Origin: Nitrososphaeria archaeon
GTDB taxonomy: Archaea > Thermoproteota > Nitrososphaeria > JACIWG01
Direction: 5' to 3'
Assembly (NCBI GenBank): GCA_050011875.1
Contig: JBEKIG010000003.1
Span: 1-64,000 of the forward strand
Length of the DNA stretch: 64,000 nt
A program made the translations under genes and the position numbers. The stretch's first letter is position 1. Each line of letters starts with the position of its first letter. Shown here piece by piece: positions 17,342 through 37,633 of this stretch. The notes beneath the pieces are model-generated. The model saw only the letters and a program-made list of their open reading frames with translations. It did no database searches and was not told where the DNA came from.

Positions 17342-17377
17342 ATGGTTTTTTACCTATAACATACTTTGATTGGTGTT

Positions 17378-17411
17378 GATGGCTGATGATGGCTGATGAT
17401 GGCTGATGATG
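17378..17411. repeat. 10-bp tandem repeat (gatggctgat), about 3 copies
   Basis: gatggctgat gatggctgat gatggctgat gatg seen directly. Confidence 0.9.
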
Positions 17412-20886: not shown

Positions 20887-22374
20887 CTAACCACTCACTT
20901 GATAGACAGAAACAGTTGGAGCAGCAGTAAAAGCCCCGAAGTTGATATGCATCCCTTGGCTCATTCTATAAGGAGCATTCCCAGCTATTCCAGTTCCCAA
21001 AGCTTTCAACCCTGAGGCTATTGTGTTACCAAAGTCATCTAGAATTGAAATACTTACGCCAGTGCCACCAGAACAGTTTATCAGAAAATCCGTGTTTGCC
21101 ATGTAGTCTGTACTTGCAATAGGTGTAGCTACACCTTCCAAAGCAATATTTATTCCTATATGATATTGCCCACCCGATTGAACATAAAATGGCGTAGACT
21201 GTTTCCCAAATGAAAAACCAATCGTTTTCAATGATAATATATCTCCCGCAATTGTACCCTTTAAGTGCATTCCTGCATTTACCGCAGCGGCTTGTTGTGT
21301 ATGAATAATTGTTACAACTTGTGCAGAATAACCACCAGTAATATGACTGCCAACATTTGCTGTTGCTGGATACCCAAGATTGTCTAAAACAATATCCGAT
21401 CCATTCAAATAAATGTAGCTTCCTATGTCCGCAGTACCATAATTACTAATTCCTTCAATCACAGTAGGACCGTTACCATAAAAAGCTAAACCACTAGTAA
21501 AAGCATTGGAGTAACCACTTGGATTGCTTCCATCCATCTCTACCTTTCCCCCTCGCCAGCTGAATCCTTCATACCACTCCCATAGAAGAGCTTGAAAGGG
21601 GTATGTGCTACCACTAGCAAGTGCTCCATCTATCTCTACATGCTTCCAAGTAACAGGTTCAGAAGGCCCAGCATATCCGCCGACACATATCGCAGTCACT
21701 GGATTAGTGCCTTGAAGAGTGGCATTTACGCTCAACTGCATGTCCTCAAGAAAAACATCGTAGTATTCTAAATCTACAATACTGTAGGTTCCACTGATAC
21801 CAGAAGTTCCAGTATAATTTCCACCTATAAGTAAAGATAAGTCTTTAAAGGTAAGCTTAGGTCCATACTCACCACCTATCCAACCTGTATAACCTGTAGT
21901 AATTGCTGACGGAACTTTTCCAGTAGGTTTAAAGCATATAGTTGTATTGCTTTTCCCGCTGCCTTGAAAAGTAGCCTGAAAAGAATGAGCTGTACCGGTT
22001 GGTAAAGTCCACGGAGTTAAGCAATTGTAGTCAGCTGGAAATATAGTAACTGTACCACCTCTTGCATACACCGAAGTGCCTAGAGTTGCCAAAGCGTTTA
22101 TCACCGCCTGGAACACAGTAGAAGCATCTGTACTTGACGCACTAAAGTCTATTGCACCTGTTATTCCATTCTTTGCATTAATAGTAGAGCCATCTGCTGA
22201 AGGAAAGATAACGTATGATGAATCTGAGGCAAATGAACCATACTTGATAGGTATCTGTGGATCTACTGATTGCGCCTTAGAAACCCCCAACTGTTTTCCA
22301 ATGATAAAAGATGTGCCTAAAGCGCCTCCCACACCTAAAGTTTTTAGCAACTTCCTTCTATCTATTTTTTCCAA
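20887..22374 (-). CDS. Tat-exported beta-helix (pectin-lyase/tailspike-like) protein
   Basis: DRRKLLK twin-arginine signal; 'NAKNGITGAIDF..TDASTVFQAVINAL...GGTVTI..ADY...FQGSG' beta-helix cap; Gly/Ser/Thr-rich. Confidence 0.7.
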   Translation of the reverse strand: MEKIDRRKLLKTLGVGGALGTSFIIGKQLGVSKAQSVDPQIPIKYGSFASDSSYVIFPSADGSTINAKNGITGAIDFSASSTDASTVFQAVINALATLGTSVYARGGTVTIFPADYNCLTPWTLPTGTAHSFQATFQGSGKSNTTICFKPTGKVPSAITTGYTGWIGGEYGPKLTFKDLSLLIGGNYTGTSGISGTYSIVDLEYYDVFLEDMQLSVNATLQGTNPVTAICVGGYAGPSEPVTWKHVEIDGALASGSTYPFQALLWEWYEGFSWRGGKVEMDGSNPSGYSNAFTSGLAFYGNGPTVIEGISNYGTADIGSYIYLNGSDIVLDNLGYPATANVGSHITGGYSAQVVTIIHTQQAAAVNAGMHLKGTIAGDILSLKTIGFSFGKQSTPFYVQSGGQYHIGINIALEGVATPIASTDYMANTDFLINCSGGTGVSISILDDFGNTIASGLKALGTGIAGNAPYRMSQGMHINFGAFTAAPTVSVYQVSG

Positions 22375-22402: not shown

Positions 22403-22498
22403 TATATTTAAACTTTTTATTAAGGTTATTTAAACCTTTCTAAAAAATTTCACAAATTTCTTCATTTTTTATTGTGAAAATTTATTAACTGACTATTT
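22403..22498 (-). promoter_or_regulatory. 96-bp promoter block, copy 1 (BRE+TATA and inverted repeat)
   Basis: Near-identical to 36133-36228; minus strand AAAAAGTTTAAATATA lies about 30 nt before the start; TTTCACAA-N16-TTGTGAAA palindrome. Confidence 0.8.
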
Positions 22499-22523
22499 AA
22501 TCATGAGATTATTACACATACTG

Positions 22524-22577
22524 AACCCTTTTTCCATCATATCATCATTAAGTTACTACTATGCAATTATAACTTTT
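22524..22577 (-). repeat. Orphan promoter plus start-codon stub, copy 1
   Basis: Near-identical to ~37579-37633; minus strand AAAAGTTATAATTGC...GATGATATGATGGAAAAA matches the start of gene 8582-9502 (MMEKK). Confidence 0.8.
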
Positions 22578-22600
22578 GCGGTCTGTTTATTTTTTAACTA

Positions 22601-22865
22601 TGGCTTTATCCTTCTCATGATTCGCAAATACTGCATGGGTTTCATTATTATATTGGCTCGCAATCATAGGTTGGTTTTCATAAATTAATCGGTTCGCAAA
22701 TCACCTATGGTTTTCATAAGATGTTTGGCTCACACGAATCCAAATGGTTTTCACTTCTCGCTTGGCTCGCATTCGCAACATGGTTTTCGAATTGATTATG
22801 GCTCGCAAGGATTTATTGGTTTACATTTTATAGAAGGCTCGCATGGTTCTCATAATTAACTCGCT
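22601..22865 (-). ncRNA. TIGR-like dual-repeat, dual-spacer guide-RNA array (36-nt period, 6 complete units at 22618-22843)
   Basis: Plus strand alternates tggctcgca-type repeats (22618, 22654, 22690, 22726, 22763, 22799, 22835) and tggttttca-type repeats (22636, 22672, 22708, 22745, 22781, 22817), with 12 unique spacers (eleven of 9 nt, one of 10 nt). Minus strand reads TGCGAGCCA-N9-TGAAAACCA-N9. Strand is inferred from the published TIGR motifs. Confidence 0.85.
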
Positions 22866-22867
22866 TT

Positions 22868-23430
22868 TATAATTTAGCGATGGTGTTAATCGAAATCGTT
22901 GGGTTCCAGGCGATTTCCCAGTAATTAGGTGTAGAATAGGTCGTGCCCCAAATGAGAAGAGTGTCGTTGCTTGCGTCGAATGAATAGTTTCCAGAAAGAA
23001 GGGTATTGTTGAAATACACGCTTTGCGGATTTCCTTGATTTCCATACCAGACTTTAACGAGAAAGCTGCTTCCGCTTAATCCAGTGACATTGAAACTCGT
23101 TATGTTATTATCTAAAGAGATTATCGTAAGATGTCAGATGTCTCCCATCTTATGTTTGGAGAAAATGTTTCACCTGTTTATAACTGCCAAAATCTTAGAG
23201 TCATTATTGATGTAAGTGAAGTTGTTAAAGTATATAGTTGGAGCAGAGAATCTTATGGTTACGTTATTTTGTAATTGAAAATAGTAGGTTAAAGTATCTA
23301 AACTAAAGACATAACTTAAATTAGCGTGAACTAAAGAGAAAGGAATTGATGATAGAAAGATAACTGATAACACTAGTATTGATATGAGATTTTTATGTTC
23401 GGGTTTAAAAAACCAAGCCCGCAGTTTCAA
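22868..23430 (-). pseudogene. Frameshifted surface-protein gene (signal peptide plus domain B)
   Basis: YVFSLDTLTYYFQLQNNVTIRFS..., then after frameshifts ...VKVWYGNQGNPQSVYFNNTLLSGNYSFDASNDTLLIWGTTYSTPNYWEIAWNPTISINTIAKL*; homologous to 35025-35365. Confidence 0.8.
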
Positions 23431-24596: not shown

Positions 24597-25201
24597 ACGT
24601 TAAAACAAAAGATTAATTGTAATCTGATTAATAGATTGTAGCGATATTCTAAACTTATCTATTAAAGATATGCCTTCAAGATAGAGCAGTTTCTTTTTTT
24701 CAATATTCCCTATAAGGTTTAACATTATTTTCATTTCCTAAATTTTTCACTAGACCTGGTAAAAAGTGTCTAATATATATATTGTGCGAGAAGATTGATA
24801 TGGACTCCTTATAATATTCTAATTTTCTTTGAAAACTCAGGAGAGACCTTAGCGCCAAATGACGGTGTGCTAAATCCTCTCCTTGTTTTAGTGTTCACCC
24901 ACCCATTTATGATTTATCAAGCGATTATTGTTATAAACCATAAAATTACGGTGCTTAACAGTTTAGCTGGGAACTGAGGGTAAGCAAGGGAAAATAGAGG
25001 AAACTGTTAAATCACTTCATGCAGGTAAAGTAATAAGGGGGGTATAGCGAAGATTTATAAGGAAATGGCTTTTTAGACCTTGTGAACATGGAAAACAAGG
25101 AAAACAACCTGAACAATGTGGTTGAACAAGGTGAATCTAAGAAAAACAGCTTGAACAATGCAGATGAACAAGACGTAACAGGTGAACAGGGGGAGGTGGG
25201 C

Positions 25202-25768
25202 ATGGAGATGACCTTAGAACAGGTTAAGGCCGAAGTCTTGAAGCTTGTCGATGAAGGGGAAAACTACAGAGATATAGCGAAGATCAAATGGAATGTTAAA
25301 GGTGCGAAAAAGCATTTTTCAATAACCTGGATAAGCAACTTGGTGAAAAAACGGAATAACCCTCAGAGTAGCCTTCTGAAGTTAAGCGATGAAGAGCTGA
25401 CGAAGAGGGCGTTTAAGCTGTTTGATGCAGGCAATGGACCTATAGCTGTCGTGGAGCAGTTAGATGCTTCACCTGATGAAGCGAAGACGCTGTACAATGA
25501 ATATGTGGAGCTGAAGGCCCTAGACCTTTCTAAACCCTCTATTCCCCTACAGTTTAAGCAGTTTAAAGAGAGGCTTGACAGGCTAGATAACGGCTGGTAC
25601 ATTATACAGTCCTTAGTTGAAGCAGTTAACAAGGAAATACCGGAAATACTTTTACCTAAGAGAGAGCAAATAAAGGGAATTGATCTCTGCTTTCTATTTT
25701 TAGAGGCAAAAGAGGTGTGCCAACATGTTAACGAATCAAATAATAGATTGGTCTCACATAGATCATAG
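25202..25768 (+). CDS. Plasmid/virus-type HTH-containing protein
   Basis: 'VLKLVDEGENYRDIAK' HTH-like region and 'RAFKLFDAGNGPIAVV..LD..P.EA..LY.EY..L' region; GGAGGTG SD before ATG 25202 (the ORF track starts at 25082). Confidence 0.6.
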   Translation: MEMTLEQVKAEVLKLVDEGENYRDIAKIKWNVKGAKKHFSITWISNLVKKRNNPQSSLLKLSDEELTKRAFKLFDAGNGPIAVVEQLDASPDEAKTLYNEYVELKALDLSKPSIPLQFKQFKERLDRLDNGWYIIQSLVEAVNKEIPEILLPKREQIKGIDLCFLFLEAKEVCQHVNESNNRLVSHRS

Positions 25769-34321: not shown

Positions 34322-36108
34322 TCAATTAATTTCACAATATCTTTTTCTTCTTGCCCATCGTAAGCAATATGAGCACGGTATATTTATCGCCGTTCCTATC
34401 TCATATGCAAAGATAGTCGGTGAAGACAGGATGACTCCTGTCAAAATGGGTGCTAATACTTTTACAAAACCTGAAATAGAAGTAGCAGAAGTTGTAGATG
34501 ATGATGAAGTTGAAGTACTTACAGTTATTGCACTTGACCACAATTCAACATCTGATTCTGCTGTATTTCTCATATAGAGCCTACCCTCTATGACATATGT
34601 TCCAGCTTTTGGAGGAGTCCATATCCAACTATAACTTGTTGGTACATTTATTGCTGGAGGAAGACCTTGTGGTGGACCCTTCGCACCTGAAGCCGTCATA
34701 TTATACCAATAAACTCCTACACCTAAAGTATTATTAACATAATAACTTAAATCAAAATATTGAAGAGCAATATTTGGACCCGTGCATACTCCTGTAACTG
34801 TCACATTAAATGTTGATTGTGAAAGTTGTTTAACCATTACTTTTACAAAACCTGAAATAGAAGTAGCAGAAGTTGTAGACGATGTTGAAGTTGAAGTAGT
34901 CGAAGTTGAAGTAGTCGAAGTTGAAGTTTTCGGAGTAGTTGAAGTAGTCGAAGTTGAAGTTTTCGGAGTAGTTGAAGTAGTCGAAGTTGAAGTTTTCGGA
35001 GTAGTTGAAGTAGTCGAAGTTGATCAAAGGAGTAGTTCCCTGAAAGGAGAACGTTGTTGAGATATACTCTTGTAGGTTTTCCTTGATTACCGCACCAAAC
35101 TTTAACTAGATAACTATTACCATTTAGACCGGTGACATTAAATCCCGCAATATTATTGTTCAAAGAAATTATCGTTAAGTTGTCAGATGTCTCCCAACCT
35201 ATGTTTGGAGAAAACGCCTGCAGTGTTGAGAGATGCCAAAATCTTATCGAATCACTATTTAGGTATGTGAAATTATCAAAGTATATAGTGGAAGGAGAAA
35301 ATCTTATTGCTGCACCGTTCTGTAACTGAAAATAGTAGATTGAAGTGTCTAAGCTGTAAACATAGGCTGCCGTAGTTGTGATTGTCGATTTCACTGCGTC
35401 TAACATTTCAACCCAATTGGAATTAGCTGAGGTAAAATTCGCTTGATAAGTTCCCGTTGACGATACAATACGATATTCTGAAGTCATTGTATCATAAGAA
35501 TCCATATGAACTATTGATGTAAAAGGTGATACTGCAGCCAAGTTAGTTAATCCGCCAGGACGACCTTCAACGTCTGCAATAAGCATGTCATTGGCATTTG
35601 TTGTAGCTTTTTGGGCGTAAACTGGATTAGACGAAGTTCCACTAGTTTTAATGGTTGAACCATCGAAAGGAGATGTTGTATTGGCATTTAAAATATCATA
35701 AAGTATCATTCCAAAATACTCATAACTCGAACTGGATGTGACATCAAAACCTATCGCACCATGCGATGACCAAACAGCGTAATATCTGTAAACATTATAA
35801 CTGCCTGAAGAAGTTGAATTTTTTAAAGTTACAGTAATACCCTTATTATCTGTGACTGATGTAATTGTTTTCCCATAGGAACCTATATCCAATATTATAA
35901 GAGCATTATTTGCAGTCGTATTTAATCCGATTACATAACTTTTTGTATTACAAGTATCTTTTGAATTAATCTTGTCAAGAACAATAACGCCTGTGGCGTG
36001 AACTACATTTTCTCCGAAAAACAATGAAAAAGAAGTTAACATCGTTAAAACGAAAATGGACACTAAAACAATAGATACAGTTTTCTTATATCCTAACTTT
36101 CTAAGCAT
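34322..36108 (-). pseudogene. Frameshifted modular surface protein (signal, domain A, domain B, Thr repeat, Ig/PKD-like domain, anchor)
   Basis: ORF 34843-36108 enters the Thr repeat out of frame after GNYSFD. The other frame reads STSTTSTTPK...SISGFVKVMVKQ into ORF 34322-34837. The anchor carries a further 1-nt deletion relative to 1699-1812. Confidence 0.8.
34911..35023. repeat. 33-bp perfect tandem repeat, 3.4 copies
   Basis: gtagtcgaagttgaagttttcggagtagttgaa at 34911, 34944 and 34977 plus a partial copy; encodes TSTSTTSTTPK. Confidence 0.95.
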
Positions 36109-36132: not shown

Positions 36133-36228
36133 TATATTTAAACTTTTTATTAAGTTTATTTAAACCTTTCTAAAAAATTTCACCAATTTCTTCATTTTTT
36201 ATTGTGAAAATTTATCAACTAACTATTT
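36133..36228 (-). promoter_or_regulatory. 96-bp promoter block, copy 2
   Basis: Near-identical to 22403-22498; lies directly upstream of the 36108 start. Confidence 0.8.
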
Positions 36229-37578: not shown

Positions 37579-37633
37579 AACCCTTTTTTCCATCATATCA
37601 TCAATAAGTTACTACTATGCAATTATAACTTTT
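37579..37633 (-). repeat. Orphan promoter plus start-codon stub, copy 2
   Basis: Near-identical to 22524-22577; the ATG ATG GAA AAA frame stops after 16 codons. Confidence 0.75.

What the first reader, a model, noticed from the sequence alone, without database searches (positions are those of the whole stretch)
22601..22865. 36-nt dual-repeat, dual-spacer array: a TIGR-like guide-RNA locus
Seen: two different 9-nt repeats strictly alternate, each followed by a unique spacer. Minus strand 5'->3': TGCGAGCCT TCTATAAAA TGTAAACCA ATAAATCCT TGCGAGCCA TAATCAATT CGAAAACCA TGTTGCGAA TGCGAGCCA AGCGAGAAG TGAAAACCA TTTGGATTCG TGTGAGCCA AACATCTTA TGAAAACCA TAGGTGATT TGCGAACCG ATTAATTTA TGAAAACCA ACCTATGAT TGCGAGCCA ATATAATAA TGAAACCCA TGCAGTATT TGCGAATCA. 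This is six complete units, and both repeat types share a TG...CCA frame. It is not CRISPR, because the repeats and spacers are too short and there are two repeat types. It is not a coding repeat, because the repeat-phased frames contain stops and one 10-nt spacer breaks phase. Established: TIGR arrays (TIGR-Tas, Faure et al., Science 2025) have edge and loop repeats with two ~9-nt spacers. They are processed into 36-nt tigRNAs that guide Nop-domain Tas proteins to DNA, one spacer per strand. Inference: this locus encodes about six guides of the form AGCCA-N9-TGAAAACCA-N9-TGCG.
Basis: partly seen in the sequence, partly recalled or inferred. Interest (0 to 1): 0.95.

Follow-up and report, generated by a model that had tools for sequence, protein, structure and literature searches.

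The report
Solitary TIGR guide-RNA array, no Tas
This is a real TIGR-type guide-RNA array of six units in an archaeal chromosome, but the Tas protein that such arrays need is missing from its surroundings and from the assembled genome, so it is probably a leftover and not a working system.

Summary
Window 22618-22843 (minus strand) carries 13 strictly alternating 9-nt repeats, 7 edge (TGCGAGCCA-like) and 6 loop (TGAAAACCA-like). They are separated by 12 unique spacers of 9 nt (one of 10 nt), giving six 36-nt units. That is 6 pattern matches against 0.02 expected, and it is the only such chain in the 2.64-Mb genome. The repeats fit the published TasR-type dual-repeat TIGR definition: UG start, CCA end, A-rich loop, extra C-G pair in the edge. 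The identical repeat pair forms 36-nt arrays in many bacterial, archaeal and viral contigs. There, 32 of 39 loci have a Tas gene alongside (homologous to PDB 9MTY TasR and to TasH). Here none exists. The neighbours are cell-envelope glycosylation genes and a pseudogene. A Tas profile finds nothing in six frames of the 97%-complete MAG apart from an IS110 transposase, and the only Nop protein is housekeeping Nop5 beside fibrillarin. The 3' end of the array is canonical, but the 5' end, where tas usually lies, is collapsed and differs in a diverged strain. Verdict: a genuine but solitary TIGR array. It is most likely a relic, less likely served by a tas gene encoded elsewhere. Expression is untested.

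The parts
22618..22843 (-). Dual-repeat TIGR array: 7 edge repeats (consensus TGCGAGCCA) alternating with 6 loop repeats (consensus TGAAAACCA), with 12 unique spacers, giving six units
22799..22843 (-). Unit 1 (edge E0 to edge E1). E0 ends CCT instead of CCA, and the loop is TGTAAACCA
   Evidence: frequencies of these variants in Tas-linked arrays
22763..22807 (-). Unit 2. The loop starts CG instead of TG, a variant seen in 7% of Tas-linked loop repeats; otherwise canonical
22726..22771 (-). Unit 3. Spacer B is 10 nt, making a 37-nt unit. The contig of the diverged strain X4 departs from this sequence inside spacer A of this unit (at 22756)
22690..22734 (-). Unit 4. Its 5' edge is TGTGAGCCA (C3>U keeps a G.U pair). 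The boxes used by this unit are canonical
22654..22698 (-). Unit 5. Its 5' edge TGCGAACCG carries the rare G6>A change (breaks the extra pair) and A9>G
22618..22662 (-). Unit 6, ending in TGCGAAtca. This is a 3'-truncated terminal edge like those closing Tas-linked arrays
22844..22864 (-). Collapsed 5' unit: partial edge GCGAG (22864-22860), a 7-nt spacer (22859-22853), then loop-like TGAGAACCA (22852-22844) abutting the first full edge with no spacer
   Evidence: my reading of the sequence
22865..22872 (-). TTATAAAA, a TATA-box-like word about 20 nt upstream of the loop-like repeat. It is a possible archaeal promoter for the array and overlaps the stop codon of the pseudogene. This is inference only
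   Evidence: flank sequence; no promoter test for archaea was available (scans the bacterial type only)
22601..22617 (-). 3' trailer with degenerate repeat-like words (TGAGAAGGA, then TAAAGCCA); no terminator-like hairpin was found
22867..23430 (-). Pseudogene directly upstream on the same strand. It has a signal peptide, then two in-frame stops and a double frameshift. It is a truncated paralogue (58% identity to residues 241-362) of the 421-aa protein at 34843-36108
20887..22374 (-). Downstream gene on the same strand: a 495-aa secreted protein with a twin-arginine-like signal and no Pfam family. It is not a Tas
22403..22577 (.). Two short intergenic elements (22403-22498, 22524-22577) repeated at 96% identity at 36133-36228 and 37579-37633 and on other contigs. 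They are probably shared promoter or leader segments of surface-protein genes and are not part of the array

Best explanation
Window 22618-22843 (minus strand) is a genuine dual-repeat TIGR array of the TasR-associated repeat class, with six 36-nt units (one of 37 nt). In complete systems such an array is transcribed as one precursor. A Tas dimer grips the UG (box D) and CCA (box C) ends of the edge and loop repeats, and the precursor is cut inside the edge repeats into about 36-nt tigRNAs. The two 9-nt spacers then pair with opposite strands of an 18-bp DNA target (established, from Faure et al. 2025 and later papers). Here the array stands alone. No tas gene lies beside it, and none was found in the assembled genome. 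I infer that it is the remnant of a TIGR-Tas locus, probably brought in by a mobile element. The tas gene, normally on the same strand and mostly upstream, would have been lost in a rearrangement of this hypervariable cell-envelope island. The array may still be transcribed, but without Tas it should be neither processed nor used. Shown here: the array, its class, the absence of Tas from the assembly, and the broken 5' side. Inferred: loss of tas and present inactivity.
For: Array identity. It has two alternating 9-nt repeats with 9-nt spacers, both repeats starting UG and ending CCA. The loop interior is AAAA, and edge positions 3 and 6 form C-G or U-G in 5 of 7 edges. These are the features given in the text of Faure et al..

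Same repeats elsewhere. The exact pattern edge-N9-loop occurs in 41 genome and 27 viral stretches, and 41 of these 68 loci hold chains of 6 or more repeats. I examined 39 of those 41. Of these, 30 have an adjacent 139-365-aa protein that matches a common profile at E 9e-31 or better, and 2 more have a copy cut by the contig end. Two of these proteins match the TasR structure 9MTY at 5.8e-25 and 2.1e-22, and TasH chains at 5.7e-09 and 4.4e-18.

No Tas here. The 10 nearest ORFs are methyltransferases, glycosyltransferases and secreted proteins, and 20 more across the window are of the same kind. A 30-sequence Tas profile was run with filters off at E<=10 against 55,614 six-frame segments of the genome. 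Its only hit below E 1 is on contig C61 (3.7e-4), which Pfam shows to be an IS110 transposase. The genome search with profile A1 gives 0 matches in G000. The only Pfam Nop hit is Nop5 next to fibrillarin.

Signs of decay or rearrangement. The 5' end is a collapsed unit instead of the usual truncated '...AGCCA + 9-nt spacer' start, while the 3' end is canonical. In 20 of 20 Tas-linked arrays tas is on the same strand, upstream in 15 of them. The upstream neighbour here is a pseudogene. Two of 7 edges carry G6>A, which has frequency 0.021 in 189 Tas-linked edges. A diverged strain (run X4) shares only the 3' part of the array and departs inside spacer A3.

Rarity in the lineage. The edge-type array was found in 2 of 401 genomes of the class (G000 and G070), and G070's lies beside a Tas. 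Clear Tas matches occur in only 3 of 301 genomes of the class, and in 0 of 9 in the same family.
Against: The genome is a MAG of 119 contigs (97.2% complete by marker genes, 4.8% contamination), so a tas gene on an unbinned contig, plasmid or virus cannot be excluded.

Repeat degeneracy (7 of 13 repeats deviant, 0.69 mismatches per repeat, one odd spacing) lies inside the range of Tas-linked arrays (0.20-0.80 deviant; up to 3 odd spacings).

Three units (2, 4, 6) have fully acceptable boxes.

Irregular junctions also occur in a Tas-linked locus: L008 has a 3-nt spacer between two sub-arrays.

The array is kept without a single difference in contigs from two further studies. In the diverged X4 strain its 3' part shows only 4 differences in 139 nt; one of these restores CCA in the last edge, and one is C3>U, which keeps the pair. 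That fits maintenance at least as well as decay, although it rests on one 350-nt contig at depth 3.2.

No expression data of any kind were available.
Confidence: 0.55

Rival explanations
1. The array is a working guide locus whose Tas protein is encoded elsewhere. The tas gene could be on an unassembled or unbinned part of the same genome, on a plasmid, or on a virus that infects this archaeon. The precursor would then be processed and used in trans.
For: The MAG is fragmented into 119 contigs. Published TIGR-Tas systems are mostly on viruses and other mobile elements. 18 of the 27 viral stretches with this exact repeat pair carry a Tas gene. The array is identical in contigs from two other studies and little changed in a diverged strain. 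Its degeneracy is within the range of Tas-linked arrays. A TATA-like word sits just upstream.
Against: Where enough flank is held, tas is next to the array: 32 of 39 loci, and 5 of the remaining 7 are short or cut contigs. The papers read describe tas genes as adjacent to their arrays. No Tas was found in 2.64 Mb. No spacer pair matches the genome or 88 foreign loci better than shuffled spacers do.
Confidence: 0.3
2. The array RNA is used by the host's own box C/D machinery (Nop5-fibrillarin-L7Ae), or by another host protein, independently of any Tas. It could act, for example, as a source of short guides or as a regulatory transcript for the downstream surface-protein gene.
For: Nop5 and fibrillarin are present. 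[quoted passage not shown] The array lies on the same strand, 244 nt upstream of a secreted-protein gene.
Against: Archaeal Nop5 binds RNAs through K-turns held by L7Ae, which tigRNA repeats lack (paper text). No Rfam family, C/D sRNAs included, reaches its threshold in the window. The transcript has no unusual structure, z -1.1. Nothing here shows an interaction.
Confidence: 0.04
3. It is not TIGR-related: a chance or unrelated short-repeat structure, such as a coding repeat, a CRISPR-like array, or an array of protein-binding sites.
For: Tandem Repeats Finder did not report it, and the defining protein is missing.
Against: 0 of 100 shuffles reach the observed count. All six frames have stops. 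The repeats are 9 nt long and of two kinds, unlike CRISPR. The same two 9-mers at the same spacing flank Tas genes in dozens of unrelated loci.
Confidence: 0.03

Closest known systems
Dual-repeat TIGR arrays of TasR systems (Faure et al., Science 2025, PMC12045711; TasR RNP structure PDB 9MTY)
   Same: Two alternating 9-nt repeats with 9-nt spacers and a 36-nt unit. Both repeats start UG and end CCA. The loop interior is A-rich and the edge has an extra C-G (or U-G) pair. The terminal edge is 3'-truncated. Six units is within the usual 5-15.
   Different: There is no adjacent tas gene and none in the assembly. The 5' end is collapsed instead of starting with a truncated edge plus spacer. No terminator-like hairpin was found. 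The array lies in a chromosomal glycosylation island with no mobile-element genes in view.
The TIGR-Tas locus of G070, a genome of the same class (locus L079)
   Same: Same class of archaea. The edge core GCGAGCCA is shared, with 36-nt periodicity and 9-nt spacers.
   Different: G070 has a 284-aa Tas (profile A1 E 1.4e-67; 9MTY 2.1e-22) directly downstream of about 47 repeats on the same strand. Its repeats start AG and its loop is AGATACCCA. The window's repeats are instead identical to the type spread among bacteria, DPANN-type archaea and viral contigs. This points to horizontal origin over vertical descent within the class (inference).
Orphan CRISPR arrays (arrays without cas genes; from general knowledge, no paper read here)
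   Same: A guide-RNA array left without its effector genes, either a decaying relic or served in trans.
   Different: A different system: two 9-nt repeats instead of one of 23-50 nt, split spacers, and a Nop-domain effector. I found no printed description of solitary TIGR arrays.
Archaeal box C/D sRNAs
   Same: A tandem two-guide layout bounded by short box motifs that contact a Nop domain (paper text). The host has Nop5 and fibrillarin.
   Different: There are no RUGAUGA/CUGA boxes, no K-turn, and 9-nt guides where 10-12 nt is usual. No Rfam match was found.

Membership tests
Dual-repeat TIGR array | Two distinct alternating 8-12-nt repeats interspaced by spacers of about 9 nt | tested here: met
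   7 edge and 6 loop 9-mers alternate strictly. 11 spacers are 9 nt and 1 is 10 nt. The definition is from the paper text.
Dual-repeat TIGR array | Both repeats begin UG (box D) and end CCA (box C) | tested here: met
   9 of 13 repeats have all five box letters. The deviants are E0 (CCT), L2 (CG), E4 (CCG) and E6 (TCA, the terminal edge). Such variants occur at 1-7% in Tas-linked arrays.
Dual-repeat TIGR array | TasR-type interiors: an A-rich loop, and an edge with an extra covarying base pair | tested here: met
   The loop interior is AAAA in 4 of 6 repeats (the others are TAAA and AAAC). Edge positions 3-6 are C-G in 4, U-G in 1 and C-A in 2 of 7. In 189 Tas-linked edges they are C-G 164, U-G 18, other 7.
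Dual-repeat TIGR array | The same repeats are found next to Tas genes elsewhere | tested here: met
   The exact edge-N9-loop pattern is in 68 stretches, and 32 of the 39 array loci examined have a Tas homologue alongside.
Dual-repeat TIGR array | Starts with a 5'-truncated edge and ends with a 3'-truncated edge followed by a terminator | tested here: inconclusive
   The 3' end is met: TGCGAAtca, like TGCGAA/TGCGTA at the ends of Tas-linked arrays. The 5' end is not met (collapsed unit). No terminator-like site was found, but the scan is of the bacterial type and the host is an archaeon.
TIGR-Tas system (array plus effector) | A Tas (Nop-domain) gene adjacent to the array | tested here: not met
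   There is no Nop or Tas among the ORFs flanking the array or elsewhere in the window. The Tas profile finds nothing in six frames of the genome except an IS110 transposase on C61. G000 has 0 matches.
TIGR-Tas system (array plus effector) | Transcription and processing into tigRNAs of about 36 nt | not testable with these tools
   No RNA run holds the locus. The four runs laid are DNA contigs.
TIGR-Tas system (array plus effector) | Spacer pairs match DNA targets on opposite strands | tested here: inconclusive
   Both geometries were tested. There are 0 hits at 1 mismatch or fewer in the genome, and counts at 2-3 mismatches equal those of shuffled spacers. There is no hit at 2 mismatches or fewer in 88 foreign loci. 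Public collections were not scanned; natural targets are unknown for TIGR in general.
CRISPR array | One repeat of about 23-50 nt, with spacers of similar size | tested here: not met
   There are two repeat kinds of 9 nt with 9-nt spacers. Cas genes were not searched for specifically.
Box C/D sRNA | C box RUGAUGA and D box CUGA forming K-turns; a match to the Rfam models | tested here: not met
   No Rfam family reaches its gathering score in the window, and the box words are absent from the repeats.
Coding tandem repeat (12-aa period) | An open reading frame through the repeat | tested here: not met
   There are 1-8 stops in each of the six frames, and the 10-nt spacer breaks phase.

The most novel reading that the evidence does not exclude
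A free-living archaeon keeps a Tas-less TIGR array in its cell-surface glycosylation island on purpose. Its transcripts would be loaded by the Tas protein of an invading virus or plasmid that uses the same, very widespread, edge/loop repeats. This would re-aim or saturate the invader's own RNA-guided nuclease, making the array a host-side guide decoy or hijack. Retention of the array in several peat populations, including a diverged strain in which one repeat change restores CCA and another preserves the edge base pair, would then reflect selection.
Probability: 0.08. Interest if true: 0.85.

Novelty: new member of a known kind. Interest (0 to 1): 0.4.

Why it matters
TIGR-Tas systems were described only in 2025, and their natural roles, targets and spacer origins are still stated as unknown. 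The published catalogues were built outward from tas genes, so arrays without tas are invisible to them. I found no printed mention of solitary TIGR arrays. This locus shows that such arrays exist on the chromosome of a free-living archaeon, in a class where TIGR-Tas is rare (2 of 401 genomes with this array type). It also shows that the TGCGAGCCA/TGAAAACCA repeat pair is shared almost unchanged by very different Tas proteins (23-51% identity to the first sequence of alignment A1) in bacteria, archaea and viruses. If the array is a relic, it is a datable trace of past TIGR-Tas carriage and loss. If it is served in trans, it would be the first hint of guide and effector being separated in this family. 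Either way it argues for array-first searches. The practical value is modest: it is one locus, with no expression data.

Tried and rejected
Expression. The look-up of sequencing runs listed no RNA holder, so nothing can be said about transcription. The four runs laid are DNA contigs only.

Bacterial-type promoter and terminator scan. It found 5 promoter-like sites against 3.6 expected and no terminator. This is uninformative for an archaeon.

Structure of the unannotated 228-aa ORF at 25082-25768 as a hidden Tas. The single-sequence model had mean pLDDT 53.5, and only residues about 41-145 were moderately confident, looking like helix-turn-helix modules. I judged it too poor for a fold search and ran none. 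The Tas profile did not hit this ORF even at E 10.

Metagenome scan with a unit-specific 27-mer. The one contig found (L089) is 100% identical to the window over 7,001 bases, so it gave no new context. The same 27-mer has 0 hits in viral contigs.

Synteny with the same-genus genome G001. The island is rearranged, so no empty-site comparison was possible.

Shared spacers. There are 0 exact matches among 656 distinct spacers from the other arrays and three one-mismatch 9-mers, which I take as chance. The flanks match no foreign locus.

Repeat degeneracy as a test of decay. It lies within the range of Tas-linked arrays and is therefore not diagnostic.

Target geometry. The papers read did not state in words which half of each strand is paired, so I tested both orders. 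mis-indexed units 3 and 4 by one base; this was corrected.

Scans of public collections for the 18-bp joined spacer targets were not done. They would have required typing joined sequences, and an exact 18-mer in collections of that size is expected by chance anyway.

Supplementary files of the papers (fig. S4, S5 and table S1 of Faure et al., with the repeat alignments and locus list) could not be seen. They may already list arrays with this repeat pair.
Full report
WHAT IS THERE. On the minus strand of window 22843..22618 there are 13 nine-nucleotide repeats at 18-nt spacing (one gap of 19). Seven are of one kind (consensus TGCGAGCCA) and they alternate strictly with six of another kind (consensus TGAAAACCA). 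The 12 intervening spacers are all different, 11 of 9 nt and one of 10 nt. The pattern edge-N9-loop with up to three mismatches occurs six times in the window, all here, against 0.02 expected, and 0 of 100 shuffles reach six. A scan of the whole 2.64-Mb assembly for chains of TGNNNNCCA-like words found only this 13-member chain and five chance chains of 5-6 unrelated words. All six frames across the array carry stops. The transcript has no unusual fold, z -1.1. No Rfam family reaches its threshold in the window, and there are no tRNA genes.

WHAT KIND OF THING IT IS. I read passages and sections 5 and 6 of Faure et al. 2025 (PMC12045711), not its supplements. The text defines dual-repeat TIGR arrays as two alternating 8-12-nt repeats with 9-nt spacers. 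For TasR arrays it says that edge and loop repeats both start UG and end CCA, that the loop interior is A-rich, and that the edge carries one extra base pair supported by covariation. The window's repeats fit on every count: UG-CGAG-CCA and UG-AAAA-CCA, with C3-G6 or U3-G6 in five of seven edges.

I then tested the link to Tas directly instead of by resemblance. The exact pattern occurs in 41 stretches of the genome collection and 27 of the viral collection, and 41 of these 68 loci hold chains of six or more repeats. I examined 39 of the 41, leaving out L020 and L054, whose only chains were six repeats long. Of the 39, 30 have an adjacent protein of 139-365 aa that matches a common profile at E 9e-31 or better, and two more (L041, L045) have that protein cut by the contig end. 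Of the other seven, five are held as 3.2 kb or less. That leaves L027 (array at the locus edge) and L063. Two of these proteins match the TasR structure 9MTY (5.8e-25, 2.1e-22) and TasH chains (5.7e-09, 4.4e-18), and 9MTY is the TasR model of the paper. So the repeat pair in the window is the repeat pair of real TIGR-Tas systems, in bacteria, archaea and viral contigs alike.

THE MISSING PARTNER. The organism is an archaeon. It has a Nop5-fibrillarin gene pair, and the Pfam Nop model rings only in archaeal control genomes. The runs that hold the locus are labelled peat metagenome.

Around the array there is no Tas. The ten nearest ORFs are methyltransferases, a glycosyltransferase, an acetyltransferase, a radical-SAM protein, secreted proteins and unknowns. 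Twenty more across the window are glycosyltransferases, acetyltransferases, deacetylases, a flippase and a beta-helix protein, with no integrase, transposase or capsid gene.

A profile of the 30 Tas proteins was run with filters off at E up to 10 against 55,614 six-frame segments of the genome. It hit only C61:65-1375 at 3.7e-4, and everything else was above E 2. That ORF is a complete IS110 transposase (DEDD_Tnp_IS110 1.1e-30, Transposase_20 5.8e-22) on a 2.1-kb contig. It is a known relative of Tas, not a Tas. tblastn with all 30 proteins found nothing better than 0.003, on the same contig. The independent genome search with alignment A1 gave 0 matches in G000. The profile is sensitive enough: in the same run it found a 284-aa Tas in G070 at 1.4e-67 and one in G033 at 5.7e-28.

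IN THE LINEAGE. The array DNA has no match in 40 relatives; only its flanks match, within G000 and weakly in G001 and G009. Among 301 genomes of the class, 30 have a match to the Tas profile at E 0.001 or better. Only three are strong (G070, G033 and a 134-aa fragment with an in-frame TGA in G257); the rest are multi-copy proteins of about 370-380 aa of IS110 type. In the same family, 0 of 9 match. The edge-type array pattern occurs in 2 of 401 genomes of the class, G000 and G070. In G070 about 47 repeats lie directly upstream of the Tas gene on the same strand, with repeats AGCGAGCCA and AGATACCCA. The window's repeats are thus closer to the cosmopolitan type than to those of its class relative. 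I read this as a sign of horizontal origin (inference).

ANATOMY OF THE ENDS. I listed the termini of 24 other arrays with this consensus pair (several are near-duplicates from related viral contigs, so they are not independent). In all 20 with a Tas call the gene is on the same strand as the array, upstream in 15 and downstream in 5.

By my reading of that listing, 14 of 24 end with a loop repeat, 9-10 nt, then TGCG followed by non-repeat sequence, and four more end in a degenerate edge. The window's last repeat, TGCGAAtca, is of this kind.

At the 5' end, about 14 of 24 begin with a 5'-degenerate edge (...AGCCA) followed by a normal spacer. The window instead has a partial GCGAG, 7 nt, a loop-like TGAGAACCA, and then the first full edge with no spacer at all (22864-22844). 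This looks like an internal unit that has suffered deletions. An irregular 3-nt junction also exists inside the Tas-linked locus L008, so this alone is weak evidence.

Directly upstream on the same strand lies a pseudogene (22867-23430). It has two in-frame stops and a double frameshift, and it is a truncated copy of the 421-aa surface protein at 34843-36108.

POPULATION DATA (contigs only). Run X1 may be the source sample. X2 and X3, from other studies, cover the array partly (X2 from 22630 upward, X3 up to 22636) without any difference. X4 holds a diverged strain, with other contigs 4-10% different. One 350-nt contig at depth 3.2 covers 22460-22756.

Within the array part of that contig there are four differences. 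22620 turns the last edge from TCA to CCA. 22660 is C3>U in edge 5, which keeps a G.U pair. 22649 and 22683 lie in spacers. Beyond 22756, inside spacer A of unit 3, the contig runs into unrelated sequence. That strain therefore seems to share only units 4-6 and half of unit 3. So the 5' side of the array varies between strains and the 3' side is stable. The metagenome collection holds one contig with unit 4, 100% identical over 7,001 bases.

IS IT DECAYED? Seven of 13 repeats deviate from consensus (0.69 mismatches per repeat). Tas-linked arrays with the same consensus range from 0.20 to 0.80 deviant repeats and also show odd spacings, so this is not diagnostic. Position by position, the loop variants and the C3>U edge variant are the common tolerated ones (5-10% in 189 edges and 194 loops from 21 Tas-linked arrays). 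G6>A, which breaks the extra pair, has frequency 0.021 there and occurs in two of the seven edges here, one of them internal. The conservation figures for the box positions in that table are inflated, because my chain finder required the boxes. By the boxes each guide would use, units 2, 4 and 6 look intact, while units 1, 3 and 5 each have one defect (CCU, a 10-nt spacer, CCG).

TARGETS. Spacer pairs were joined programmatically in both possible geometries. There were 0 hits at one mismatch or fewer in the genome, 2 at two and 71 at three; shuffled spacers gave 0.2, 5.2 and 64.8. In 88 foreign loci (575 kb) there were none at two or fewer and 9 at three, against 12.2 for shuffles. Spacers are 26% G+C against 37% for the window. 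The paper states that natural targets and spacer origins of TIGR systems are unknown.

HOW IT MOST LIKELY WORKS, OR NO LONGER WORKS. In complete systems Tas is needed for maturation. Faure et al. found no 36-nt RNAs without TasR. Later work places a Y/H catalytic pair for processing in the C-terminal loop of dual-repeat Tas proteins (passages of the TIGRFinder preprint) and shows that the SpTasH Nop domain is required (passages of PMC13421893). An array without Tas should therefore stay an unprocessed transcript at best.

My best reading (0.55) is that a TIGR-Tas locus, probably delivered by a mobile element, lost tas and the start of its array in a rearrangement of this hypervariable envelope island, leaving six units. 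The main rival (0.3) is that tas exists on a part of the genome, plasmid or virus that is not in the MAG (119 contigs) and serves the array in trans. Use by the host's Nop5 machinery (0.04) and a non-TIGR origin (0.03) are unlikely.

NOVELTY. This is a new member of a known kind. I found no printed description of solitary TIGR arrays. 'Orphan' occurs 0 times in Faure et al.. 'Standalone', 'solitary' and 'in trans' occur 0 times in the TIGRFinder preprint, whose catalogue was built around tas loci. A library search for 'TIGR array' with 'orphan' returned one irrelevant paper. Supplements were closed and may bear on this.

Noticed in passing
window 17377-17411: A perfect 10-nt tandem repeat TGATGGCTGA x3.5 in an intergenic stretch. 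It strings together words resembling box C (UGAUGA) and box D (CUGA) without guide-length spacers, and there is no Rfam hit.
   Followed up: no
window 22867-23430 (minus): A pseudogene with a signal peptide followed by two in-frame stops and a double frameshift. It is a truncated paralogue of the 421-aa surface protein at 34843-36108, and another copy lies on contig C5.
   Followed up: partly
window 22403-22498 and 22524-22577; also 36133-36228, 37579-37633; G000 contigs C22 and C5; G001 and G009: Short intergenic elements repeated at 81-96% identity upstream of several surface-protein genes, and also in two related genomes. They are probably shared promoter or leader modules. In other copies 1,356 bases separate the two parts.
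   Followed up: partly
window 34860-35023: Complex tandem repeats (periods of 6, 15, 33 and 48) at the 3' end of the 421-aa gene, giving a repetitive C-terminal tail in the protein.
   Followed up: no
L063:3021-3299 (viral contig, 14.7 kb): Another array of this family with no Tas homologue beside it. The only profile hit is weak (E 0.0026) and lies 8.5 kb away. It may be a second solitary array.
   Followed up: no
L081 (G257:C1:883100-883258): A Tas-like fragment (E 1.7e-14) in a 134-aa frame with an in-frame TGA, in a complete genome of the same class. It looks like a decayed tas gene. No array chain was found in the 3.2 kb fetched.
   Followed up: partly
G000 contig C61 (L070:65-1375): A complete IS110-family transposase filling a 2.1-kb contig. 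It is the only relative of the Tas fold family in the assembly besides Nop5.
   Followed up: yes
L008 (10.6-kb MAG contig): One Tas gene is flanked by four sub-arrays of the same repeat pair, one upstream and three downstream, with an irregular 3-nt junction between two of them.
   Followed up: no
window 1-64000: The whole window is a large cell-envelope glycosylation island on one strand, and it is rearranged relative to the same-genus genome G001.
   Followed up: partly
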